DNA of 64,000 bases from a candidate division WWE3 bacterium. Its GTDB lineage: Bacteria > Patescibacteriota > WWE3 > UBA101185 > UBA10185. Made by a program: the position numbers and the translations under genes. Shown piece by piece: positions 14,196-44,908 of this stretch; positions within the stretch are counted from its first letter, which is position 1; every line of letters begins with the position of its first letter. Below the pieces are notes generated by a model that saw only the letters and a list, made by a program, of their open reading frames with translations, searched no databases and was not told where the DNA came from. The stretch is taken from positions 260,588-324,587 of the forward strand of contig WJKK01000001.1 in NCBI GenBank assembly GCA_014729135.1, in the 5' to 3' direction.

Positions 14196-14540
14196 CGTTA
14201 GTTTGAAAATTAATTAAAAGCTTTGACGGAAGGTCATTAGTAGAATATCTTCAGTGACACCAGAGATTGTGCGGTAGCTGAAAGCACAACGTATGAAGTA
14301 GTTTGAATTACCCTTTCTGAGCTTTCCGACTGAAAAACCTTTTTTAGGTAGTAAGTTGGAACGGGCGATCCCGTTATAGATTTTGGAGTGTGTCACGAAT
14401 CGTAAAACGAAGCAACAGAGCACTTCTCAAGACTCTTATGGTGACATAAGGGTGAATTTAAGGTGGTACCGCGGTAATAAAGCCGTCCTTAGACTTTATC
14501 TATTAATTTAGATGAGGTTTGAGGACGGCTTTTTTTGTTG
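14196..14540 (+). promoter_or_regulatory. T-box riboswitch leader (tRNA-sensing transcription attenuator); specifier tentatively UAC (Tyr)
   Basis: T-box sequence aatttaaGGTGGTACCGCGG (14455-14474); F-box-like CCCGTTATA (14370-14378); AGUA S-turn element and AGAGA box in Stem I; terminator aaagccgtcc...ggacggcttt plus T-tract (14479-14537). Confidence 0.65.
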
Positions 14541-14916: not shown

Positions 14917-15828
14917 ATGAAAGCTTTACCTGAAAGTTTGGAGGGTTTCAACATCCTCCATGTCGTTTTGGATTCGTTGCGCTTTGACAGCGCGTCCCGG
15001 GCAGATACACCTGTGCTTGATTCCCTGGGGCCACTAATTGCCGCGCGAACTTTGGCACCCTACACTCCCGCAGCACATGCTGCTGCCTGGTTGGGCCACT
15101 TTCCGAGTGCGCCCACATCGGCGCTGCCTTACTACAATGAGACCGTACGGCAGCCCCTACGTATCACCACGGGTCCCGCCCGTGACGCGAACAAAGGCTG
15201 TGGGATGCTTTTGGATGGCGCCGATGTGCTGGATGGCCTGTGTCGAAAGGGTTATTCCACGTTAGGTTGGGGAGGTGTTTCCCAATTTAGTACAGGTAGC
15301 TGGCTTCGCCAGTTTGCCTGGGACCATTTCACTTATTTTGGAGTGGATATGGACGAGGAGCCTCTGGCACCGCGCGCACCTGAAACCTTTCCCTTGAATC
15401 TGAATCGTGTGGGCGAGATTTTGTCCACAATGTCTGATTATGGGAAGGTTCCTTGGTTCCTTTTTCTCAACGACCCCGCGCCACACTATCCCTATGATTG
15501 GGGGGAAGGTATTACCGAGGAAGTGCGGGAGGAGGCTTTTCCCTTGCTTAAGCTCAATCTGCGTTCTCACCATCTTGCCATGGAGAAGCGCGACATGCTG
15601 GCGCTTTATGCCCCTCTCCTTCAGCAGATGCAAGTAGATGGTTTGGAACGTTATATCGATCCTGGTCTTGGGGAACTTTTCAAAGGTCTTCGGCAGATCT
15701 CGGATCGCCCCGTCTTTGCAATTGTGCACGCCGATCATGGTGAGTACTTTGGTGAGGACGGACTGTATGGTCACATGCATGGAGGAATCTATGATATGAC
15801 TGTTCCTCTGTGGATTGGTGTACTCTAA
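14917..15828 (+). CDS. alkaline-phosphatase-superfamily enzyme (sulfatase / nucleotide pyrophosphatase-phosphodiesterase-like); GC-rich, likely acquired
   Basis: N-terminal metal-ligand motif NILHVVLDSLRFD and C-terminal HADHGEYFGE...GHMHGG resemble AlkP-superfamily signatures; local GC (estimated by eye) is far above the flanks. Confidence 0.5.
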   Translation: MKALPESLEGFNILHVVLDSLRFDSASRADTPVLDSLGPLIAARTLAPYTPAAHAAAWLGHFPSAPTSALPYYNETVRQPLRITTGPARDANKGCGMLLDGADVLDGLCRKGYSTLGWGGVSQFSTGSWLRQFAWDHFTYFGVDMDEEPLAPRAPETFPLNLNRVGEILSTMSDYGKVPWFLFLNDPAPHYPYDWGEGITEEVREEAFPLLKLNLRSHHLAMEKRDMLALYAPLLQQMQVDGLERYIDPGLGELFKGLRQISDRPVFAIVHADHGEYFGEDGLYGHMHGGIYDMTVPLWIGVL

Positions 15829-30850: not shown

Positions 30851-33763
30851 TTAGCCCTTCCAAACTTTGGGGCAGATGTCCTTGTAATCACACCACCTGC
30901 AATGATAACCCGGGTCAGCTTCAAACCCGCCTTCTTTAATATTTGCAATAATCTCCTTTGTTTCCTCCCTCACACTCTCAATATCCTCCTCCGTACGTGT
31001 CGTACTAACCCTTTCTCCTGCCTCCACAAAATGCAGTGTCATCTTTTGCGGATCAAGTCCCAATGCCTCCTTAGCCCCTAAAGCATAAAAAGTCACCTGC
31101 TTGTCCTTATCAACATCCTTTTGGCTTTTTAACTTGCCTGTCTTATAGTCAATAATTTCAACACCCTGCGAATTCCCTGACTCTTCGGAACCCAACCGAT
31201 CAATCCGGTCAATACGTCCATAAAACCTAATCCCATCAATCTTAATATTAAACGACTTCTCCAACCCCAAAGGTTTCTGCCCCTTATCAACCTCCTCATA
31301 ATAATTTTGCAACAAATTCTCTCCCGCTTTAAAACGCTCCCGACGATGTTCTTCATTTAAATAACCCAAAGGCTCCCAATTTTTCTCATAAATTTCCATC
31401 AAATCCTCCAAAGAAACCTCCTCAAACAAAAGCTTCTCATGAAACTCCTTTAACGTCTCATGAATTGTAATTCCAAAACTTAACGCATGACTTGGCAGCG
31501 TTGGAACATGCAAAATATATTTGTACTTATACTGAAGGGGACAAGTTTCATACGTTGAAATTTGCGTATAACTTAAAAAGCTTGGTGTAAAATTTGAAAT
31601 CTTTTTTAGCGCCGGCTCCCGATAAGAAGAATTAACGCCAAACAAACTTTCCTGCTTCTCCTTTTGATCCCGCTCCATAACCACCTCCTGCGTTTCCAGA
31701 CCCGCCTCCTCCAAAAACCCACTAGGACGCTTTTCACGAGTACCTCCATAATCCTTTGCATACGCCATATACAGATACTTTTTCGCCCGCGTCATTCCCA
31801 CATAAAACAAACGACGCTCCTCTTGAATATGCGCATTGCCTTCAGGAAGCGTCTCCTTAATTAGGTCATCGGGAATTTCAATTTTATCGCTTCTATTTCG
31901 CGTAGGAAAACGGCTTGCCACCAAATTCACCATAAAAATCACCGGAAACTCCAGCCCCTTGGAAGCATGCACCGTCAGCAAATTAATCGTGTCAATATCC
32001 TCAATTTCAGCCTGCGCCGGATTATCTCCCGCCTCAATAAGCATCTCCATATGCTCCACAAAATCCACTAACGTAGGAATCTCTCCCGTATCCCGATTAA
32101 ACTGCACTTCAAACTTTTTCACCTTGTCCAAAAACAGGTCCATGTTTTTAATGCATAGCTGATTTTGGATAGTATCTTCCTCCAGAAACTGCTCCACATA
32201 GCCAATTTCACTTACAAGATTGTAAATCAGTTCCACCGGAGTCTTTTTTGCAATTTCCTGCCGATATTTATTGGTTAGCTCTTTAAAATTTTGTAGCCCT
32301 GCATTCTTGGAAGCTTTCACCGCCTCCCATAGGTCAATTTTTTTAAACTTGGCTGTTGAAAGCGTTTTAGCAACTGTCTCCTTATTAATGCCTGTTCCAT
32401 CAACCCCCAAAGTCTCAATATTTAGAGCTCGATATAGGCTTATAGCATCGTTAGGGTCTATCAAAGTTTTAACTAAAGCCATAATATCGCGGACTTCATT
32501 ACGATCATAAAGACCTCGATTTCCCACCAGCTGGTAAGGCAGTTTATATTTTCGTAGCGCTAAAACAAAAGGATCCAAATGGTTATTGGCACGCGCTAAA
32601 ATTGCAAAGTCTTTATAGGTGTATTGCGGCTCTTTTCCTAAAATCTCAATAATTTTTGTAATCACAAAATCCACTTCATCTTCTGCTGTCTCCACCTCAA
32701 TAACTTGCGGTTTTTGGTTGGTTTGTTTAATTTGGCTAACAAGCTCTTTTGAAATTCCCAGCTTGGTTTCCAGCGTATCGGGATTATTGTTTTGCACAAC
32801 TTTGTAAGCTGCATCCAAAATGTCCTGTTCTGATCGGTAGTTTTTTAGAAGCGTTACCATTTCCGCATTTGGGTAATCGTCTTTAAATTGGAGAATGTTG
32901 GAGATTGCTGCTCCCCGAAATTTGTAGATTGATTGGGAGTCGTCTCCCACTACGGTTAGGGATCTTTCTGTGGTGTTTTTGTTTGCTTTTTCGGTAGGGA
33001 ACAGAAGTTTAATAAGTTCATATTGCGCATAGTTAGTGTCTTGAAACTCGTCTACTAAAATGTGCTTAAATTTTTTACGATAGTTTTCCAAGATGTTTGG
33101 GCGTTCTTTAAAAAGTTTTATAGTCCAGGTGATTAAATCGCCAAAATCCATTTTTGATTCTTGAATTTTAATTTCCTGGTAAGTTTTGTAAATTTTTACC
33201 AGCTCTTGCCAGCGCTCTTTTTCTTCTTTTTCGGGGAATTCCTTTGTTTCCACATAGTTTTTTAACTCTTCCGGTGAGATGTTTTCATCTTGAAGGCGTG
33301 AAATAAACTTTAAAATTGCGGATATAAACTTAGTCGGATTGCCTAAGGGAAGGTAATATTTCAGGTTCATGGAGAAGATGTTTTTCCTAAGGAGCATCCA
33401 TTGTTCAGGGTAGGCGATGATTTTATAGGAGGGATCTAGGCCAATTTCCAGTGCTTCTTTTTTTAGGAGGCGATCACAAAAGGAGTGAAATGTGTAGATC
33501 CAGGGTTCTTCGTAGGCTAGGGGCATTGATTCTTGGGAGCGAAAGAGCATTTCTTCGGAGGCTTTTTCTGTGAATGTTAAAGCAAGGATTTGCATGGGGT
33601 CGATTTTGTCATGGTTTATAAGGGAGTTGATTTTTTCGGAAATGACGCGGGTTTTTCCGGTTCCGGCGCCTGCTACTACAATGAGGGGTCCTTGTTTGTG
33701 ATCTACCGCTTTTTGCTGGTTTTTATTAAGTGTGATTTTTTGATCTGCTTGTGGTGTTGGCAT
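30851..33763 (-). CDS. UvrD/PcrA-family SF1 helicase fused to a C-terminal Cas4/AddB-like PD-(D/E)XK nuclease with an Fe-S cysteine cluster
   Basis: Walker A VVAGAGTGKTRV; helicase motifs (TFH, VDEFQDTN, GDDSQSIYKFRGA); C-terminal YETCPLQYKYKY ... IDRIDRL ... IIDYKTGK ... CRWCDYKDICP. Confidence 0.8.
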   Translation of the reverse strand: MPTPQADQKITLNKNQQKAVDHKQGPLIVVAGAGTGKTRVISEKINSLINHDKIDPMQILALTFTEKASEEMLFRSQESMPLAYEEPWIYTFHSFCDRLLKKEALEIGLDPSYKIIAYPEQWMLLRKNIFSMNLKYYLPLGNPTKFISAILKFISRLQDENISPEELKNYVETKEFPEKEEKERWQELVKIYKTYQEIKIQESKMDFGDLITWTIKLFKERPNILENYRKKFKHILVDEFQDTNYAQYELIKLLFPTEKANKNTTERSLTVVGDDSQSIYKFRGAAISNILQFKDDYPNAEMVTLLKNYRSEQDILDAAYKVVQNNNPDTLETKLGISKELVSQIKQTNQKPQVIEVETAEDEVDFVITKIIEILGKEPQYTYKDFAILARANNHLDPFVLALRKYKLPYQLVGNRGLYDRNEVRDIMALVKTLIDPNDAISLYRALNIETLGVDGTGINKETVAKTLSTAKFKKIDLWEAVKASKNAGLQNFKELTNKYRQEIAKKTPVELIYNLVSEIGYVEQFLEEDTIQNQLCIKNMDLFLDKVKKFEVQFNRDTGEIPTLVDFVEHMEMLIEAGDNPAQAEIEDIDTINLLTVHASKGLEFPVIFMVNLVASRFPTRNRSDKIEIPDDLIKETLPEGNAHIQEERRLFYVGMTRAKKYLYMAYAKDYGGTREKRPSGFLEEAGLETQEVVMERDQKEKQESLFGVNSSYREPALKKISNFTPSFLSYTQISTYETCPLQYKYKYILHVPTLPSHALSFGITIHETLKEFHEKLLFEEVSLEDLMEIYEKNWEPLGYLNEEHRRERFKAGENLLQNYYEEVDKGQKPLGLEKSFNIKIDGIRFYGRIDRIDRLGSEESGNSQGVEIIDYKTGKLKSQKDVDKDKQVTFYALGAKEALGLDPQKMTLHFVEAGERVSTTRTEEDIESVREETKEIIANIKEGGFEADPGYHCRWCDYKDICPKVWKG

Positions 33764-33884
33764 GGTTTTGTTTGTGTTGTCCTATTATACATTTGAGTTG
33801 AAGGGAAGTTATTTTAGTTGCGGTTTCCTTTGCTATGGGGTATTATTTATGCAGCTAAAGAATCTATTTAGAGGGGGTGAGGAA

Positions 33885-33977
33885 ATGGATCCGCTGGGCT
33901 GGTGTGTGGTTGGGTTTGTCTTTGTGATTGTAGGAGTTGTGGGCTATGCCCGCACCGTTCTGGGCTCCTCGAGTTAG
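33885..33977 (+). CDS. small hydrophobic peptide (30 aa) in a GC-rich mini-island
   Basis: SD agggggtgagg 6 nt upstream of ATG; MDPLGWCVVGFVFVIVGVVGYARTVLGSSS has one TM helix. Confidence 0.3.
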   Translation: MDPLGWCVVGFVFVIVGVVGYARTVLGSSS

Positions 33978-33987
33978 GAGGTGGGTG

Positions 33988-34104
33988 ATGGGGATCGGTA
34001 TTGGCATCGGCGTTGGCATTTTGGTGCTCGGTTTCGCGATTCTTGTGGTGACCCGTGGTCGCGAAGCGAGCGAGGAGACCGCCGAAATGTTTCGGAATCG
34101 GTGA
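33988..34104 (+). CDS. small hydrophobic peptide (38 aa) in a GC-rich mini-island
   Basis: SD aggaggtgggtg immediately upstream; MGIGIGIGVGILVLGFAILVVTRGREASEETAEMFRNR has a Gly-zipper TM helix and a charged tail. Confidence 0.3.
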   Translation: MGIGIGIGVGILVLGFAILVVTRGREASEETAEMFRNR

Positions 34105-34219
34105 TCTTCTCGTTTTGGCAAGGAGTCGGTTGGAAATGAAAGGGGAGGAGGTTTTCCTCAATCATTTCCAGCCGGCTTGCAGTAAGCGCTTCGGAGCTTT
34201 TTCATGCTAAACTTTCCCC

Positions 34220-35989
34220 ATGACAGAACCAAAAACATTCCCTGGTAAACCCAAAACCACCTGGAACTTAGACCTCATAGGCAACACAACCCTCCAAAAA
34301 GTTCAAAAAGAAGCCAAGAAATTCATCGAAAAATGGAAAAAGCGCAAAGATTACCTCCAAAAACCCTCCATATTAAAAGAAGCTCTGGATGACTACAACC
34401 AATGGGAGGAAAAATACTCCATGGGAGGCGATGAAGCCTACAAACTGATACTAAAACTCACACTTGATCAAAACAACGCAAAATTAAAAGCTCAATACAA
34501 CAAACTTCATGAAAAATACATTGAACTCTACAACTCACTCCAGTTTTTTATGCTAAACATCTCAAAAATTCCGCCAAAGGAACAGCCAAAATTCCTAAAA
34601 GCACCGGAGCTTGCAAAATACCGTTACTTTTTAAAAGGTCAGTTTGAAATAGCTAAATACCTGCTTACCGAAAAGGAAGAGCGAATTCTAAACTTAAAAT
34701 CAAAAGTAGCCTTTGGCAATTGGGTGGACATGACAGAAAATCTTATTTCAAAAGAAACTCGTGACGGCAAAAGTTTCTCCGAAATCCTATCTGAAACAAG
34801 CGACCCTAATAAATCCAAGCGGGATAAAGCAGCAAAATGGCTAAATGAAATCTTTGAAAATCACATTGATCCGGGGGAGCATGAGTTAAATTCGGTTTTA
34901 GAAAACGCCAAAATTAATCAAAAGTTGCGCGGTTATAAGCGCCCTGATGAGCCTCGGCACGTTGGCGATGACATAGAAACCGAAGTAGTAGATGCTTTGC
35001 TTACGGCGGTAACTTCTCGTTATGACATTTCGCAAAAGTTTTATGAGTTAAAGGCTAAGCTTTTGGGCTTTGAGCAGCTGGAATATCACGAGCGCAATGT
35101 GCCTTATGGCAAGGCCGAGAAGGAGTATGAGTTTGAAGATGCTTTGGCACTTGTAAATGAGACTTTTTATGATTTGGATCCCGAGTTTGCCCAGTATTTT
35201 CATAACTATTTTAAGCAAGGTCAATTTGATGCCTTCCCCAAAAAAGGAAAAAGTTCAGGTGCAGCTTGCTTTTCCGGTTTAAAAACCCAGCCGATTTATA
35301 TCTATTTAAACTTCACAAAAAAGCTTAGAAACGTTACTACAATAGCGCATGAGATGGGACATGCAATTCATAGCGAGTTGGTTTTTAAGTCGCAGCCGGC
35401 TATTTATGCAGGCACTTCTTTGGCAACGGCAGAAACGGCTAGCACTTTAATGGAGGATTTTGTTGTTCAACGGATTCTGCATGACGCCGATGATGAGTTG
35501 AAGCTGGCACTCCAAATGGAGCAGCTTAATGATTCGGTTTCTACAATTCAGCGTCAAATTGCTTGTTATAAGTTTGAGCAAGAGCTTCATGAGAGTTTTC
35601 GCAGGGAGGGCTATCTTTCCAAGGAGCAAATTGGGGAGCTTTTTCAAAAGCACATGGCTGCTTATATGGGGGATTTTGTGGAGCAGTCAAAGGGTTCGCA
35701 AAATTGGTGGCTTTATTGGAGTCATATTCGCCGTCACTTTTATGTTTATTCTTATGCCAGCGGGCTTTTAATTTCTAAGTCGCTGCAAAAGCGTGTTAAG
35801 GAGACTCCGGAGTTTATAAAGGAGGTTAAGGAGGTTTTAGCTTTAGGTACTTCAAAATCCCCTAAGGATGCGTTTTTGGAGATAGACATTGACATTTCTA
35901 ATCCTGATTTTTGGTTGCAGGGTTTAAAGGAGCAGTCGCAGCTTTTAGATGACACTTGGACATTAGCGGAAAAACTTGGCAAAATATAG
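34220..35989 (+). CDS. pepF: oligoendopeptidase F (M3B family)
   Basis: HEMGHAIH zinc motif; ~590 aa M3B architecture. Confidence 0.85.
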   Translation: MTEPKTFPGKPKTTWNLDLIGNTTLQKVQKEAKKFIEKWKKRKDYLQKPSILKEALDDYNQWEEKYSMGGDEAYKLILKLTLDQNNAKLKAQYNKLHEKYIELYNSLQFFMLNISKIPPKEQPKFLKAPELAKYRYFLKGQFEIAKYLLTEKEERILNLKSKVAFGNWVDMTENLISKETRDGKSFSEILSETSDPNKSKRDKAAKWLNEIFENHIDPGEHELNSVLENAKINQKLRGYKRPDEPRHVGDDIETEVVDALLTAVTSRYDISQKFYELKAKLLGFEQLEYHERNVPYGKAEKEYEFEDALALVNETFYDLDPEFAQYFHNYFKQGQFDAFPKKGKSSGAACFSGLKTQPIYIYLNFTKKLRNVTTIAHEMGHAIHSELVFKSQPAIYAGTSLATAETASTLMEDFVVQRILHDADDELKLALQMEQLNDSVSTIQRQIACYKFEQELHESFRREGYLSKEQIGELFQKHMAAYMGDFVEQSKGSQNWWLYWSHIRRHFYVYSYASGLLISKSLQKRVKETPEFIKEVKEVLALGTSKSPKDAFLEIDIDISNPDFWLQGLKEQSQLLDDTWTLAEKLGKI

Positions 35990-37290
35990 GTATGGTGGAT
36001 AAAACAGCTAATTTGGAGGTGGGCCAACCCGACAATTCAGGCCAGGTTCAACCGACAGGAGACTTGGAAAATTCCTCGAACAAAATTGAAAATTCCGGTG
36101 AGGGCAATCAAAAAGCTTCTCCGAAGGGCAATCAAAAACAAAAAAAGCGTTTTCACATGTCATTTCTATTAAAACTTCTGCTACTTGGAGCAGCCGCTTT
36201 TCTAGCAGTTTTTGCTTACCTTGTGATAACTCAAAACCCTGCTGTGATGCGAGACGAGCTAGAACCTGAAGAGCCTCAAGTTATAACAAAGCCCGAGCTG
36301 GAAAATCCTATAAAGACGTACACAAGTGAAAAGTTTAAATTTTCGATTCAATATAATACTGACATTCATGAATTTGAGCGTCGTGCTGCTTTTTCAACAC
36401 AGCCTCCGCAGTTTGTTATTACGCATCAAGGAGCTAATCAGGCTGATTTAGACACGGAAAAGGACTTAACGGATGGTTACATTGTTAAAATTTCAGCTTA
36501 TGAAAATCCGGGAATTGATGCGCTTGTTTCGGCTCAAAGGAAGCGGGAAAAGTTTACGCTGGAGTGTCCGGAAATTACGGAGGTTCGGGAAATTTATTCT
36601 CGCAATATTGATGGCGCTGAAGCAAAAAGTTTTGAAGTTATTAATTGTCCGCAAAATTACGTAGAGAATTTTATTGGTTTTGGTGACGATGTTTTGGAGA
36701 TTACGCAGATTTATCGCGGGGATATTGGTTTTAAGCAAAGTTACAGAGCCCAAACGGATGAAATTGTTCGAAATTTTAAGTTGCTGCGGGATCCTGAGGA
36801 GGCTCCGGAAATAGCTTCGTTTGAAAGCCTTGAATATCAGCTTAGCTTTATCCATCCCGTTTTAAATGCTAAGTGTTGTTCGGTTACGGCTCCTTCTATT
36901 GAAGGGCTGGAGAAGGTGGTGGTTTTGGCGGATGCCTCCGAAACGGATGAGGAGGGTAATGTTTTAAACAAACTGGGGATTTTTGCATATCCGTCTAAAG
37001 GTAAGTCGTTTGATTTGTTTTTAAATGAGCAAAAGCAAGCGCTAATTCAGGAGTTTAAGATTGTTGAGGAGGAGAATCCTACAAATTTGCGTGAGGAGGT
37101 AGTTTCTGTAGGTGGTCGTGACGCTTATAAGTTGGTGAATTATGCTTGGTGGGGGGATATTGTGTTTTTGGAGCATCCTAATGCGAATTATTTTTTGGTG
37201 TTTGTTATTCCTGAAGATGCAACAGAGGATTTTTCGGCTGTAGTTGGGGAGATTTTCGCCTCCTTTGGATTTGTGGTTGAAGAGGAGTAG
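35956..37290 (+). CDS. hypothetical membrane-anchored extracytoplasmic protein
   Basis: Low-complexity N-terminus, TM LLKLLLLGAAAFLAVFAYLVI, ~350 aa extracellular region with no recognised motif. Confidence 0.4.
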   Translation: MDISGKTWQNIGMVDKTANLEVGQPDNSGQVQPTGDLENSSNKIENSGEGNQKASPKGNQKQKKRFHMSFLLKLLLLGAAAFLAVFAYLVITQNPAVMRDELEPEEPQVITKPELENPIKTYTSEKFKFSIQYNTDIHEFERRAAFSTQPPQFVITHQGANQADLDTEKDLTDGYIVKISAYENPGIDALVSAQRKREKFTLECPEITEVREIYSRNIDGAEAKSFEVINCPQNYVENFIGFGDDVLEITQIYRGDIGFKQSYRAQTDEIVRNFKLLRDPEEAPEIASFESLEYQLSFIHPVLNAKCCSVTAPSIEGLEKVVVLADASETDEEGNVLNKLGIFAYPSKGKSFDLFLNEQKQALIQEFKIVEEENPTNLREEVVSVGGRDAYKLVNYAWWGDIVFLEHPNANYFLVFVIPEDATEDFSAVVGEIFASFGFVVEEE

Positions 37291-37324: not shown

Positions 37325-37400
37325 TGGTGACCCCACGGGGAATTGAACCCCGGTTTTCGGGATGAGAACCCGATGTCCTAGTCCACTAGACGATGGGGCC
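37325..37400 (-). tRNA. tRNA-Glu (anticodon CUC), CCA encoded
   Basis: Reverse complement ggccccatcgtctagtggactaggacatcgggTTCTCATcccgaaaaccggggttcaattccccgtggggtcacca parallels E. coli tRNA-Glu; anticodon loop UUCUCAU. Confidence 0.75.
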
Positions 37401-37517: not shown

Positions 37518-37934
37518 CTAAAACTTCACCAACTCCATCTCCTCAAACACCTCAAAATCCTTAACATTATTCGTTGCAATCTTATAAATAGAATTTGACA
37601 AGGCTGTTGCCACTAAATAGGCATCATATATCTTATTTGAAGTTACTTTGTACTTTTTAAGCAACCTAAAGAAATGTTCCCTTGTGTATATGTTAGGAGA
37701 AATATGTATGCATAAATCACTTACTCTTTTTACCGCTTCCATTGCATCCTTTAAAGAAGCCGTCTTTTTGTACTTTTCATGTGTAAGGACTCTAATTGCT
37801 TCGTTTATGTTTTGATCTGCTAAGGCAAGCTGGGGAAGATGAAGGTTTATGAATTCCCTTGCTTGCTGATTTAAGAGATCATTTTCATTTATAGAGAAGA
37901 TCAGAATATTTGTGTCCAGGAGGATTTCAGGCAT
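37518..37934 (-). CDS. PIN-domain ribonuclease (VapC-like toxin)
   Basis: MPEILLDTNILI N-terminal PIN signature with downstream acidic residues; 138 aa. Confidence 0.7.
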   Translation of the reverse strand: MPEILLDTNILIFSINENDLLNQQAREFINLHLPQLALADQNINEAIRVLTHEKYKKTASLKDAMEAVKRVSDLCIHISPNIYTREHFFRLLKKYKVTSNKIYDAYLVATALSNSIYKIATNNVKDFEVFEEMELVKF

Positions 37935-38591
37935 TTAGCTTTGGTAATAGTCCTCTCGTGTTAAATCGTGAGGAATATCCAGATCTAAGGTCATAAAGTT
38001 CACTTTTTTCTTACTGGGGATTTTCTTTCGTAACTCGTTTTTTTTCTGAGCTCTGAAAATATTTTTTCTGTAGTATTCCAGTTCCGCAATGGATTCTTTG
38101 ATATCTTCTAAGGCTCTGTGGTTCTTTTTCTTTTCGAACTTCGGAATTTCCGGGAACCATCTCTGAGCTAGAAGCTTAGTTGTAGTTATATCTATCAATC
38201 TGTAATGTAAGTAACTATCAAGTTTTTTCATATAGTTTTTTAAGAACATCCTATCCATATATATTGAGTTTCCACATAAAGGAGATTCACCTTCTGCAAC
38301 ATGTTTTTTAATAAATTCCAAAATTTCTTTTTCAGCGCTTTCCTCTGTATATGAAGATTCTTTCATTTTTTCGATGAATCCTGAGTCAAAAAAAGTTTCC
38401 TTCATAAAGGGATTTGTTACATCAAATAGGCTTTCCTCTTGTTTTATGATTATTTCTGGGCCTTCTGCAATAACTTCAAGATTTTCATTTGTTATGAGGC
38501 ACGCTATTTCTGTGATTCGATCTGTAAATGGATCCAGTCCTGTCATTTCAAGATCCATCCAAACCAGATTACTTGCCTTTCTGTGAGTCAT
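37935..38591 (-). CDS. orn: oligoribonuclease (DEDDh 3'-5' exonuclease) with a ~37 aa basic/acidic C-terminal extension
   Basis: WMDLEMTGLDP (Exo I), HRALEDIKESIAELEYYR (Exo III H-x4-D); 218 aa versus ~181 aa typical. Confidence 0.8.
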   Translation of the reverse strand: MTHRKASNLVWMDLEMTGLDPFTDRITEIACLITNENLEVIAEGPEIIIKQEESLFDVTNPFMKETFFDSGFIEKMKESSYTEESAEKEILEFIKKHVAEGESPLCGNSIYMDRMFLKNYMKKLDSYLHYRLIDITTTKLLAQRWFPEIPKFEKKKNHRALEDIKESIAELEYYRKNIFRAQKKNELRKKIPSKKKVNFMTLDLDIPHDLTREDYYQS

Positions 38592-43720: not shown

Positions 43721-44908
43721 ATGGGGAAGCAAGTTTTGGTGATGGGGGTTAGGCGGCAATATCAGTTCGACGGAGATTGGGGAGACTGGCTTCGGCTCGG
43801 TGTTCGGCGTCTTCTGACTTTACAGTCAGGAGATGTTGCAGTCCTGCCGGAGATTTGGGGCATTCCCGAGTATGTGGAGCACTTGCAGGAGGTTTGGGGT
43901 ATCAATTTGGAGGTCCTGTGGGTGAGCGGTAGGTTTTACCTCCTGGATAGCGCTATTCTGGAGACCCCGAGGGTTCTCGGGCGTCTTCAGGAACTGGGAG
44001 GACAAGGTGCAGTTTTTGTGCTGTACGATAGTTCGACGTCACACTTCCAGTCTTGGTGGCGATTGATGCCGCAGGAAGCTCGTTTGTGTGGAGAGACTTT
44101 GGAGTGGGGTAGTCGATGGAACACCAAGAAGTGGTTGTACCGAGACGCTAGGAATCCAGAGCAACCTTCGATTGCCGAACGGTTGGATATTCCGGTACTC
44201 TCAGGCTACAATGCAGGATCCGTCGCGGAGCTGTTGAAGGCTTGGGACCTAATAGGATGTGGCTCGGTTATCATCAAGCCGTTGACAGCGGCGTTTGGTG
44301 ACGGTTTGGTGGTTGCGCATGAACGGAGTGATTTGGAGTCCTATACTTTCCCACTCGGTTCGGTGGGTGTGGAGGAGTATGTGGAAGGTTATCCCCAGCC
44401 TTGGTCCACCCACTGGGTAGGGGAGGAGCTGCTTGGACCTCCGACTTCCCAGCTTCTTCACGGGAGCACTGCCGTGGGAAACGTCACTCCAGGGGATTTT
44501 GACGCGGCGATGCAGGGGCAGCTTCTGGCGTTGACCCGTGAGTTTGTTCGGGCAGCCCAGCCCCGCGGCTATGGGGGCCTCAACGGGTTGATCGACGCCG
44601 AAGGGGTACCCCGCGTGACGGATGCCAATTGTAGGGAGACGGGTGTTTGCTCGACGCTCGTTTTCCGTGACCGTTATTGTCCCGGGGCGGTGACGGTAAA
44701 CAAGAAGTTGGGGAGACCTAACATGTCCGTTGGAGATGCTTGGCAGTGTCTTCAAGCGGCAGGCTTAGCATTCGACATCTCGGCGCGACGAGGAATAGCC
44801 CTCCAGGGGTGGTTACCCTCGATGTGGAGTCGCATGACCTGCGCCGCAGACACGAGGCAAGAGGCCTTAGAGCTGCTCAATGCAGCAAAGGAGGCTTTAG
44901 GTATGTAA
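43721..44908 (+). CDS. ATP-grasp-fold enzyme (RimK/LysX-like ligase family); GC-rich, likely acquired
   Basis: Strong SD aaggagg. VIIKPLTAAFGDGLVV (central ATP-grasp lysine strand), VGVEEYVEGY (E-x-Y-I/V hinge), LIDAEGVPRVTDANCRETG (Mg-binding Asp/Asn loop). Local GC (estimated by eye) is well above the flanks. Confidence 0.5.
   Translation: MGKQVLVMGVRRQYQFDGDWGDWLRLGVRRLLTLQSGDVAVLPEIWGIPEYVEHLQEVWGINLEVLWVSGRFYLLDSAILETPRVLGRLQELGGQGAVFVLYDSSTSHFQSWWRLMPQEARLCGETLEWGSRWNTKKWLYRDARNPEQPSIAERLDIPVLSGYNAGSVAELLKAWDLIGCGSVIIKPLTAAFGDGLVVAHERSDLESYTFPLGSVGVEEYVEGYPQPWSTHWVGEELLGPPTSQLLHGSTAVGNVTPGDFDAAMQGQLLALTREFVRAAQPRGYGGLNGLIDAEGVPRVTDANCRETGVCSTLVFRDRYCPGAVTVNKKLGRPNMSVGDAWQCLQAAGLAFDISARRGIALQGWLPSMWSRMTCAADTRQEALELLNAAKEALGM

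What the first reader, a model, noticed from the sequence alone, without database searches (positions are those of the whole stretch)
33880..34110. GC-rich mini-island with two tandem small hydrophobic peptides and very strong SD sequences
Between the divergent helicase-nuclease and pepF genes lies a ~230-nt GC-rich patch. It encodes a 30-aa peptide (MDPLGWCVVGFVFVIVGVVGYARTVLGSSS, SD agggggtgagg) and, 10 nt later, a 38-aa peptide (MGIGIGIGVGILVLGFAILVVTRGREASEETAEMFRNR, SD aggaggtgggtg). Each has a single TM helix. It is followed by an 8-bp hairpin (ggaaatga...tcatttcc). Three overlapping antisense ORF artefacts mark the composition change. These could be type I toxin-like or bacteriocin-like small membrane proteins, and they are not in the ORF track.
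Basis: partly seen in the sequence, partly recalled or inferred. Interest (0 to 1): 0.55.

Follow-up and report, generated by a model that had tools for sequence, protein, structure and literature searches.

The report
Two orphan membrane peptides, hypervariable slot
An unannotated mini-operon in a WWE3 (CPR) bacterium probably encodes two tiny single-helix membrane peptides with no known relatives; it sits in a slot whose promoter and terminator region are conserved in related genomes while its coding content has been swapped or deleted.

Summary
ORF1 (33885-33977, 30 aa) and ORF2 (33988-34104, 38 aa) each follow a near-consensus Shine-Dalgarno (SD) site at ideal spacing. The patch is 56-57% GC against 41% for the window, and a strong hairpin follows.

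It is not a structured RNA. Rfam gives no match, and the coding part folds no better than shuffles (z -0.25).

The genome is a candidate division WWE3 bacterium. In its few relatives (pepF 67-70% identical), the helicase/pepF gap has the same layout: a conserved promoter and SD, a hydrophobic ORF cassette, a terminator, then a leaderless pepF promoter. The cassette content is mutually unalignable:
- two 1-TM peptides in the window
- two other 1-TM peptides in L002
- a 128-aa protein in L001
- a 130-aa protein in L003/L008
- no cassette in L009

No cassette product has a homologue or family match outside this clade.

Best reading, about 0.6: a real, SD-driven, translationally coupled pair of orphan single-pass membrane peptides, the local allele of a dispensable, fast-turnover accessory slot. 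Function is unknown.

A type I toxin is possible by architecture, but nothing found here supports it. A bacteriocin is unlikely. A decaying remnant cannot be excluded.

The parts
33784..33789 (-). -10 box (TATAAT) of the divergent helicase-nuclease gene, which starts at 33763. It marks the left border of the slot.
   Evidence: Perfect TATAAT on the minus strand. ATTATAC is invariant in the alignment of all six loci.
33818..33846 (+). Predicted sigma-70-type promoter of the cassette: -35 TTGCGG (33818-33823), 17-nt spacer, -10 TATTAT (33841-33846).
   Evidence: A TTGC-type -35 element (CTGT in L008) followed by N17-(GGG)TATTAT aligns in the window, L001, L002, L003-5 and L008, and is degraded in the cassette-less L009. 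It falls below the threshold of the generic promoter scan. No transcript data.
33873..33880 (+). SD of ORF1 (GGGGGTGA).
   Evidence: Sequence. It aligns with the GAAAAGGAGG SD of the cassette genes in relatives. It lies in an unpaired hairpin loop in the predicted minimum-free-energy fold.
33885..33977 (+). ORF1, a 30-aa single-pass membrane peptide (stop codon included).
33976..33983 (+). SD of ORF2 (AGGAGGTG). It overlaps the ORF1 stop codon, which implies translational coupling.
   Evidence: Sequence.
33988..34104 (+). ORF2, a 38-aa single-pass membrane peptide with a GxGxGxGxG (glycine-zipper-like) TM segment and a 17-aa charged tail (stop codon included).
34124..34177 (+). Long imperfect hairpin with 23-nt arms, at the 3' end of the transcription unit.
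   Evidence: The 100-nt stretch containing it folds at -40.1 kcal/mol, z -4.36. It occurs once in the window.
34186..34202 (+). Small GCGC-UUCG-GAGC hairpin plus a T5 run. This is the likely intrinsic terminator remnant and is homologous to the 3' half of the terminator in relatives.
   Evidence: It aligns with TTGCGTTTGGATCTCGGGCGTTTTTT of L001, L003, L008 and L009. The generic terminator scan did not call it.
34205..34213 (+). Extended -10 box (TGCTAAACT) of pepF, ending 6 nt before the pepF ATG at 34220. It indicates a leaderless pepF mRNA and marks the right border of the slot.
   Evidence: Conserved as TGCTAGAAT or TGTTAGAAT/TGTTAAGAT, 6 nt before the start codon, in all relatives.

Best explanation
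The patch is a self-contained, unannotated two-gene operon. A sigma-70-type promoter (TTGCGG-N17-TATTAT) would give a transcript of roughly 350 nt with a leader of about 30 nt.

ORF1 (30 aa) and ORF2 (38 aa) would be translated from strong SD sites. ORF2 is coupled to ORF1, because its SD overlaps ORF1's stop codon. The transcript ends at a strong hairpin plus a weak hairpin/U-run. pepF, just downstream, has its own leaderless promoter.

Each product is a single transmembrane helix. By the positive-inside rule the orientation is N-out/C-in, because the only basic residues follow the TM segment. Both helices are rich in small-residue motifs, such as GxGxGxGxG in ORF2, which favour helix-helix packing. 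The pair therefore probably forms an oligomer in the cytoplasmic membrane.

The operon is the local allele of an accessory slot found only in a small WWE3 clade. Its expression scaffold is conserved. Its coding cassette has been replaced, or has diverged beyond recognition, several times and has been lost at least once. The product is therefore dispensable and lineage-specific.

**Shown:** the anatomy, frame-specific hydrophobicity, lack of RNA structure in the coding part, conservation of the scaffold, non-homology of the cassettes, and absence of homologues.

**Inferred:** transcription, translation, membrane insertion, topology and oligomerisation. The cellular role is unknown.
For: **Anatomy and SD geometry:**

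**Not explained by composition:** 2 of 5000 shuffles reproduce two TM-grade ORFs. The other five reading frames are not TM-like.

**Helical models:**

**Not a structured RNA:** no Rfam family matches. The coding part folds with z = -0.25, whereas the hairpin region gives z = -4.36.

**SD use is selective in this genome:** about 10 of 56 genes have a good SD, and many look leaderless. Two optimal SD sites 100 nt apart are therefore notable.

**Same synteny in relatives:** FemAB-FemAB-helicase(-)/slot/pepF.
- The promoter and SD align, and so do the terminator's 3' half and the pepF -10 box.
- Every allele that has a cassette encodes hydrophobic ORFs on the + strand behind an AGGAGG-type SD: L002 has 42 + 41 aa 1-TM peptides, L001 a 128-aa protein, and L003 and L008 a 130-aa protein.
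- The 130-aa gene shows a coding signature between L003 and L008, with pN 0.29 against pS 0.71.
- All cassette ORFs share raised GC3, 0.38-0.64 (0.53 or more in all but L002's second ORF), against 0.27-0.41 in the adjacent pepF.

**Cassette turnover:**
- L001 and L003 have pepF 89% identical (pS 0.35) and flanks 69-78% identical overall, reaching 87-97% across the terminator and pepF promoter. Their ORF bodies are only 39% identical at the nucleotide level, which is about the random level, with pS 0.74.
- Local DNA alignment scores between cassette types are no better than shuffles, except for L003 against L008.
- L009 lacks the cassette although its pepF is 97% identical to that of L008.
Against: - There is no expression or translation data.
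- Neither window ORF has a homologue. Searches were the 5.8-billion-protein word search, phmmer of ORF2 against 1.84 billion representatives, and Pfam, PADLOC, PHROGs and NCBIfam. Purifying selection on these two ORFs therefore cannot be tested.
- The window cassette is shorter than the crown-group genes (220 nt against about 390 nt), and ORF2 is in the +1 frame relative to ORF1. Both facts would also fit a broken gene.
- SD-plus-start motifs arise often in this purine-rich genome.
- GC-rich DNA has few stop codons, so ORF length alone carries little weight.
- The promoter is below the generic scan threshold.
- Only about six independent lineages were available for comparison.
Confidence: 0.6

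Rival explanations
1. Decaying remnant. The window cassette is the wreck of a longer membrane-protein gene, like the 128-130-aa genes of the crown group, broken by deletion and a frameshift. The transcript may still be made, but the two ORFs are not functional products.
For: - ORF2 is in the +1 frame relative to ORF1, and the cassette is about 170 nt shorter than in L001, L003 and L008.
- The slot is dispensable, since L009 lacks the cassette.
- There are faint, non-significant resemblances. ORF1's DPL...Y.TxLGS pattern resembles WQDPL...YVTLLGS in L001. ORF2's GVGILVLGFAILVVTR resembles the C-terminus GVILGILILLNR of L008. The window-versus-L008 DNA alignment score gives z 3.1, p about 0.013 before correction for nine tests.
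Against: - On the pepF tree, the window and L002, the two lineages with two peptides, branch earliest. The long gene is therefore not obviously ancestral.
- Each ORF holds a complete TM segment and has its own optimally spaced SD.
- A fused reading would put basic residues on both sides of the second TM segment.
- L002 independently shows two short 1-TM ORFs with related RIC...W tails.
- No significant homology to the long genes was found.
Confidence: 0.2
2. Type I toxin-antitoxin-like locus. One or both peptides are membrane-damaging toxins, held in check by an antisense or overlapping small RNA that has not been detected.
For: - The peptides are under 70 aa and have one TM segment. ORF2 has a polar, charged and bulky C-terminal tail.
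- The locus is intergenic and was missed by annotation.
- It shows presence/absence variation between relatives. These are the features used to predict type I toxins in Fozo et al. 2010 (PMC2887945).
- One -10-like TACAAT lies on the minus strand inside ORF1, at 33932-33927.
Against: - That antisense candidate has a poor -35, no TG extension and no conservation that could be tested.
- The toxin-type mRNA features described in PMC12648545, namely an occluded ribosome-binding site and a structured primary transcript, are absent. SD1 is in a loop, and the coding part has z -0.25.
- A conserved promoter with strong SD sites would be hard to tolerate for an unregulated toxin.
- The two ORFs are co-transcribed non-paralogues, not repeated units.
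- No known toxin family matched.
Confidence: 0.12
3. The functional product is the RNA itself, either a small RNA or a cis-acting element for the flanking genes, and the ORFs are incidental to G+T-rich sequence.
For: - The promoter and terminator are conserved while the ORF sequence is not.
- The whole 356-nt stretch folds with z -4.1.
Against: - The excess structure lies entirely in the 3' hairpin (z -4.36). The 258-nt coding part gives z -0.25.
- Rfam has no match.
- The body is not conserved at the nucleotide level either, which a functional RNA would normally require.
- The hydrophobicity is frame-specific.
- The 130-aa allele shows a coding signature.
- pepF and the helicase gene have their own promoters.
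Confidence: 0.06
4. Leaderless or two-peptide bacteriocin pair that is exported to kill competitors.
For: - The two small peptides are adjacent and rich in glycine motifs, as in class IIb two-peptide bacteriocins (my own knowledge; not tested here).
- The locus is hypervariable, as bacteriocin and immunity loci often are.
Against: - Both peptides have net charge 0. Known leaderless and two-peptide bacteriocins are cationic (my own knowledge).
- There is no double-glycine leader.
- The immediate neighbours are FemAB, a helicase-nuclease, pepF and an unknown 444-aa protein. None is a recognisable transporter or immunity gene.
- No family matched.
Confidence: 0.02

Closest known systems
Bacterial small membrane proteins (SMPs) of under 50 aa, such as AcrZ, MgtS, KdpF and CydX, reviewed in PMC12648545
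   Same: The peptides are 30-38 aa with one TM helix and a short cytoplasmic tail. They were missed by annotation and lie in an intergenic gap.
   Different: - They have no sequence relationship to any described SMP.
- No partner complex is encoded alongside them.
- They are restricted to one lineage.
- They sit in a slot whose content differs completely between relatives.
Type I toxins (Hok, Fst/Ldr, TisB, Ibs, ZorO and others), using the criteria of Fozo et al. 2010 (PMC2887945)
   Same: The size, TM segment and polar or bulky C-terminal tail of ORF2 match. So do the intergenic location, the two small hydrophobic ORFs in one gap, and the patchy distribution.
   Different: - No antitoxin small RNA was detected.
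- The SD is exposed, not occluded.
- The two ORFs share one transcript and are not paralogues.
- There is no homology to any known toxin family.
Class IIb two-peptide and leaderless bacteriocins (my own knowledge)
   Same: Two adjacent peptide genes of about 30-40 aa with glycine-rich helix-packing motifs.
   Different: The peptides are uncharged, have no leader, and have no transporter or immunity genes nearby. The organism is a CPR bacterium with a small genome.
The cassette genes at the same slot in related WWE3 metagenome contigs: L002 42 + 41 aa, L001 128 aa, L003/L008 130 aa
   Same: - They occupy the same position between the helicase-nuclease gene and pepF.
- The promoter and SD are alignable, and the terminator and pepF promoter follow.
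- The products are hydrophobic, and GC3 is raised.
   Different: No detectable similarity at the protein or DNA level. The number and length of ORFs also differ.

Membership tests
Type I toxin-antitoxin system | Toxin is a small (under 70 aa) hydrophobic protein with a TM segment and a polar, charged or aromatic C-terminal region (PMC2887945). | tested here: met
   ORF2 is 38 aa with KD17 2.89 and the tail TRGREASEETAEMFRNR. ORF1 is 30 aa with KD17 2.55, but its tail is short and only weakly polar.
Type I toxin-antitoxin system | An antisense or overlapping small-RNA antitoxin gene with its own promoter. | tested here: inconclusive
   The only -10-like hexamer on the minus strand within the cassette is TACAAT at 33932-33927. 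It has 2 of 6 matches in the -35 and no TG extension. The generic scan found none. Strand-specific RNA-seq is needed.
Type I toxin-antitoxin system | The toxin mRNA is translationally inert until processed, with a structured 5' region or an occluded SD (PMC12648545). | tested here: not met
   The predicted leader is about 30 nt. SD1 sits in a 13-nt loop of the minimum-free-energy fold. The 258-nt stretch 33853-34110 folds no better than shuffles, z -0.25.
Type I toxin-antitoxin system | Homology to a known toxin family. | tested here: not met
   No match in Pfam or NCBIfam. No homologue in the large protein collections.
Type I toxin-antitoxin system | Toxicity on overexpression. | not testable with these tools
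   Requires an experiment.
Two-peptide or leaderless bacteriocins | Cationic peptides. Leader-containing types also have a double-glycine leader, together with dedicated transporter and immunity genes. | tested here: not met
   Both peptides have net charge 0. There is no GG leader. The neighbours are FemAB, a helicase-nuclease, pepF and an unknown protein. No family matched.
Known structured RNA families (Rfam 15) | A match to a covariance model, or significant conserved secondary structure. | tested here: not met
   No hit at gathering score. Only chance-level miRNA-like hits fall on the hairpin. The coding part gives z -0.25.
Protein-coding small ORF (generic) | A ribosome-binding site at functional spacing, and frame-specific protein-like properties beyond what composition explains. 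| tested here: met
   SD1 matches 7 of 8 positions with 7-nt spacing. SD2 matches 8 of 8 with 6-nt spacing. Only 2 of 5000 shuffles gave two TM-grade ORFs.
Protein-coding small ORF (generic) | Purifying selection on the reading frame in relatives. | tested here: inconclusive
   No relative carries this cassette. Only the non-homologous 130-aa allele shows pN below pS.
Integron-type gene cassette | An attC recombination site (R''/L''...L'/R' with the GTTRRRY core) and a nearby integrase. | not tested
   By eye, the window hairpin has no RYYYAAC/GTTRRRY cores. No systematic search for an integrase was done.

The most novel reading that the evidence does not exclude
The helicase/pepF gap of this WWE3 clade is a dedicated hypervariable expression slot: a conserved promoter, SD and terminator into which unrelated GC-richer hydrophobic ORF cassettes are swapped by recombination. 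The sample holds at least four mutually unalignable alleles and one null allele among genomes whose flanking pepF is 67-97% identical. That pattern would point to diversifying or frequency-dependent selection on small membrane proteins, for example in host-cell contact, phage exclusion or toxin/immunity. Alternatively the slot could be a hotspot for birth of new membrane genes in a reduced CPR genome. The window's two-peptide operon would then be one functional allele.
Probability: 0.25. Interest if true: 0.6.

Novelty: new member of a known kind. Interest (0 to 1): 0.4.

Why it matters
Small hydrophobic ORFs are routinely missed by annotation. These two are absent from a 15-billion-protein collection. 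In relatives, gene callers even placed ORFs on the wrong strand over the equivalent gene.

For CPR bacteria, whose membrane biology and host interaction are poorly understood, this is a strongly signalled, lineage-specific pair of membrane peptides. It sits in a slot that turns over faster than synonymous sites of the neighbouring gene. That makes it a concrete candidate for an accessory function under diversifying selection, or for rapid gene turnover.

The case is still a single orphan locus in an uncultured organism with no functional clue, so its immediate impact is modest.

Tried and rejected
- **Structured RNA.** Rfam gave nothing at gathering score on the whole window or at E up to 10 on 33700-34300, apart from chance hits on the hairpin. 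ARAGORN found no tRNA or tmRNA here. Rejected on the fold statistics.
- **Homologues of the peptides.** All of these returned nothing:
  - exact look-up;
  - word-indexed search with the two peptides concatenated, because the tool needs at least 40 aa;
  - full phmmer of ORF2 against 1.84 billion representatives;
  - Pfam, PADLOC, PHROGs and NCBIfam;
  - tblastn against the window for paralogues.
- **Mobile-element origin.** blastn against phage and plasmid collections, and an exact scan of viral contigs, found nothing meaningful. The hairpin is not repeated in the window.
- **Homology between cassette alleles.** The protein alignment, tblastn with filters off, and shuffle-calibrated local DNA alignment were all non-significant, except for L003 against L008.
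- **The 130-aa allele as a route to function.** Its only database hit is a 98%-identical copy of itself.
- **An alternative ORF1 start at ATG 33849 (42 aa).** Rejected because it lies only 2 nt after the -10 box, which is upstream of any plausible transcription start.
- **A fused ORF1-ORF2 protein through a frameshift.** Considered unlikely. Stop codons at 33925 and 33931 in the ORF2 frame restrict any shift to 33934-33977, and the resulting topology violates the positive-inside rule.
- **More distant pepF relatives.** Those at 65% identity or less (L006, L007, L121-L123) have GreA upstream and no cassette, so they could not add alleles.

Full report
**1. What is in the sequence**

The region 33764-34219 lies between two divergent genes. 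One is a 970-aa UvrD-type helicase fused to a PD-(D/E)XK nuclease, on the minus strand and starting at 33763 (Pfam UvrD-helicase, UvrD_C, PDDEXK_1). The other is an M3-family oligoendopeptidase F, on the plus strand and starting at 34220 (PF08439 and PF01432).

- ORF1 runs 33885-33977 and encodes 30 aa.
- ORF2 runs 33988-34104 and encodes 38 aa, in the +1 frame relative to ORF1.

Both have near-consensus SD sites at ideal spacing.
- SD1 is GGGGGTGA at 33873-33880, with 7 nt between the GGGGG core and the ATG.
- SD2 is AGGAGGTG at 33976-33983, with 6 nt to the ATG. It overlaps ORF1's TAG stop codon, an arrangement typical of translational coupling.

The composition stands out. GC is 0.56-0.57 against 0.41 for the window. 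GC3 is 0.58 and 0.64 against a gene mean of 0.38.

Each peptide has one strongly hydrophobic segment, with Kyte-Doolittle 17-residue means of 2.55 and 2.89. AlphaFold2 models each as one continuous helix, with pLDDT 90 and 87.

The 100-nt stretch containing it folds at -40 kcal/mol with z -4.4. A small GCGC-UUCG-GAGC hairpin and a T5 run follow it at 34186-34202.

**2. Is it more than chance?**

GC-rich DNA has few stop codons, which explains the three long antisense ORFs. SD-like motifs followed by a start codon are also common in this purine-rich genome, with about 60 in the window. Neither ORF length nor a single SD is therefore strong evidence.

The hydrophobicity, however, is specific to the reading frame. 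The other five frames are not TM-like. Only 2 of 5000 composition-preserving shuffles produced two non-overlapping ORFs with TM-grade segments.

Only about 10 of 56 genes in the window have a good SD. Many instead have a TATAAT-like box 6-8 nt before the start codon and so look leaderless. Two optimal SD sites 100 nt apart are therefore unusual here.

**3. Not a structured RNA**

Rfam gives nothing at gathering score. A permissive scan gives only chance hits on the hairpin. The 258-nt stretch from the predicted transcription start to the end of ORF2 folds no better than shuffles (z -0.25), and SD1 lies in an unpaired loop of that fold. All of the excess structure seen comes from the 3' hairpin.

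**4. Where it comes from, and what relatives show**

pepF is identical to MBD3365986.1 from a candidate division WWE3 bacterium, on an 864-kb contig. The closest pepF relatives are only 67-70% identical.

Those that keep the FemAB-FemAB-helicase(-)/pepF(+) synteny were recovered as L001, L002, L003-5, L008/L120 and L009/L077. Aligning the gaps shows a conserved scaffold:
- the helicase -10 box, with ATTATAC invariant;
- a plus-strand promoter, a TTGC-type -35 (CTGT in L008) followed by N17-(GGG)TATTAT, which in the window is 33818-33846;
- an SD;
- a terminator, whose 3' half aligns with window 34178-34202;
- an extended -10 box (TGCTAGAAT; TGCTAAACT in the window) ending 6 nt before the pepF start codon, which implies a leaderless pepF mRNA.

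The small ORFs are therefore a transcription unit of their own, not a pepF leader.

Between the SD and the terminator the content differs completely between lineages.

| Locus | Cassette content |
|---|---|
| window | 30 + 38 aa, one TM each |
| L002 | 42 + 41 aa, one TM each, with related charged tails (...RICKRIDEDSWERN and ...RICDALRSLEQKHWLED) |
| L001 | 128-aa multi-TM protein |
| L003-5, L008/L120 | 130-aa multi-TM protein |
| L009/L077 | no ORF and a degraded promoter, although pepF is 97% identical to L008 |

The cassettes cannot be aligned with each other at the protein or DNA level, except L003 with L008. L003 and L008 are 52% identical in protein, with pN 0.29 against pS 0.71, which is a coding signature.

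The sharpest contrast is between L001 and L003.
- Their pepF genes are 89% identical, with pS 0.35.
- The flanks of the slot are 69-78% identical overall and reach 87-97% across the terminator and pepF promoter.
- The ORF body is 39% identical at the nucleotide level, about the random level, with pS 0.74.

That contrast fits replacement of the cassette by recombination better than in-place divergence.

All cassette ORFs have raised GC3, 0.38-0.64 (0.53 or more in all but L002's second ORF), against 0.27-0.41 in the adjacent pepF. The two other GC-rich genes in the window also have strong SD sites and no Pfam match. Both points are compatible with a foreign origin for such DNA in this genome.

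On a pepF tree, the window branches first and L002 second. These are the two lineages with two peptides. The long-gene alleles form the crown group.

**5. No relatives anywhere else**

None of the following found anything for the window peptides:
- exact look-up;
- the word-indexed search;
- full phmmer of ORF2 against 1.84 billion representatives;
- four HMM libraries;
- phage, plasmid and viral DNA searches;
- a paralogue search within the window.

The 130-aa allele finds only itself. In the public data, gene callers placed minus-strand ORFs over the 130-aa gene in L003-5 and L120, which helps explain why the family is invisible in protein databases.

**6. Most likely mechanism**

The most likely reading has confidence about 0.6. 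A roughly 350-nt transcript starts about 7 nt after the TATTAT box. Ribosomes load at SD1 and translate ORF1. Ribosomes terminating at TAG 33975-33977 sit on SD2, and they or newly loaded ribosomes start ORF2 10 nt later, giving roughly equal amounts of the two peptides.

Each peptide would insert as one TM helix. The orientation is N-out/C-in by the positive-inside rule, because the only basic residues (R23 in ORF1; R23 and R25 in ORF2) follow the TM segment. The small-residue motifs favour helix-helix packing. These are GxGxGxGxG in ORF2 and several Gly residues spaced 3-7 apart in ORF1. A hetero- or homo-oligomer in the membrane is therefore plausible. The hairpin and U-run end or stabilise the transcript before the pepF promoter.

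The anatomy and the comparative pattern are shown by the data. Expression, insertion, topology and oligomerisation are inferred. The cellular role is unknown. The loss in L009 shows the slot is dispensable, and the turnover points to an accessory function.

**7. Rival explanations**

- **Decaying remnant of a longer gene (0.2).** The +1 frame offset, the shorter cassette and faint non-significant resemblances fit this. The complete TM segments, the separate optimal SD sites, the L002 parallel and the tree argue against it.
- **Type I toxin (0.12).** The protein features match the Fozo et al. criteria (PMC2887945). However, the only antisense -10 candidate is weak, the SD is exposed rather than occluded (compare PMC12648545), and the ORFs are co-transcribed non-paralogues.
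- **Functional RNA (0.06).** This is contradicted by the fold statistics, the lack of nucleotide conservation and the frame-specific hydrophobicity.
- **Bacteriocin pair (0.02).** The peptides are uncharged and have no leader, and there is no transporter or immunity context.

**8. Comparison with known systems, and novelty**

In kind, these are bacterial small membrane proteins, which is a known class. They belong to no known family, so I file them as a new (orphan) member of a known kind.

The more unusual element is the slot itself. A conserved expression scaffold carries at least four mutually unalignable hydrophobic cassettes and one null allele within a narrow CPR clade. This rests on about six lineages and has no functional data. 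I give it a probability of 0.25 as a genuine cassette-exchange or diversifying-selection locus, with interest 0.6 if true. Overall interest is 0.4.

Noticed in passing
window, e.g. starts at 1968, 5011, 12687, 22245(-), 25636, 28923, 38591(-), 38631, 39542, 52178, 54881, 58830(-), 59969(-), and pepF 34220: Many genes have a TATAAT-like -10 box ending 6-8 nt before the start codon and no SD. Only about 10 of 56 have a good SD. Leaderless mRNAs therefore appear widespread in this WWE3 genome. For pepF the arrangement is conserved in all relatives examined, including the GreA-linked ones.
   Followed up: partly
window 43721-44908 (+) and 14917-15828 (+): Two other GC-rich genes (GC 0.56 and 0.53; GC3 0.61 and 0.52) have strong SD sites and no Pfam match. 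They are probably foreign genes, and they share the GC-rich plus strong-SD signature of the small-ORF island.
   Followed up: partly
window 14214-14493 (+): A T-box leader (Rfam RF00230, 108.5 bits) lies about 420 nt upstream of the GC-rich orphan gene at 14917. The gene it controls was not established.
   Followed up: no
window 37518-37934 (-) and 37935-38591 (-): A PIN-domain gene lies immediately downstream of, and abuts, an RNase_T-family exonuclease gene. tRNA-Glu (37325-37400, minus strand) follows.
   Followed up: no
L003 1791-2045, L004 1089-1343, L005 379-633, L120 2-289: Public gene calls place 84-96-aa ORFs on the minus strand over what is, by its SD, hydrophobicity and pN below pS, a plus-strand 130-aa membrane-protein gene. 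These are probably wrong-strand calls.
   Followed up: partly
L001 4480-4515: An 11-codon mini-ORF (MSKAPKNKEAS) follows the ancestral SD position. Its stop overlaps the start of the 128-aa cassette gene in an ATGA, and that gene has its own second SD.
   Followed up: no
L009 3490-3660 (also L077 1-30): The cassette-less allele keeps the 3' half of the terminator. It replaces the promoter and ORF with about 120 nt of unrelated non-coding sequence that contains a GAGTACT...AGTACTC hairpin.
   Followed up: partly
window 35956-37290 (+): The 444-aa gene after pepF has no Pfam match. A counterpart of 398-442 aa sits directly after pepF in every relative whose contig extends that far, including the GreA-linked ones. 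pepF and this orphan may form a conserved pair.
   Followed up: no
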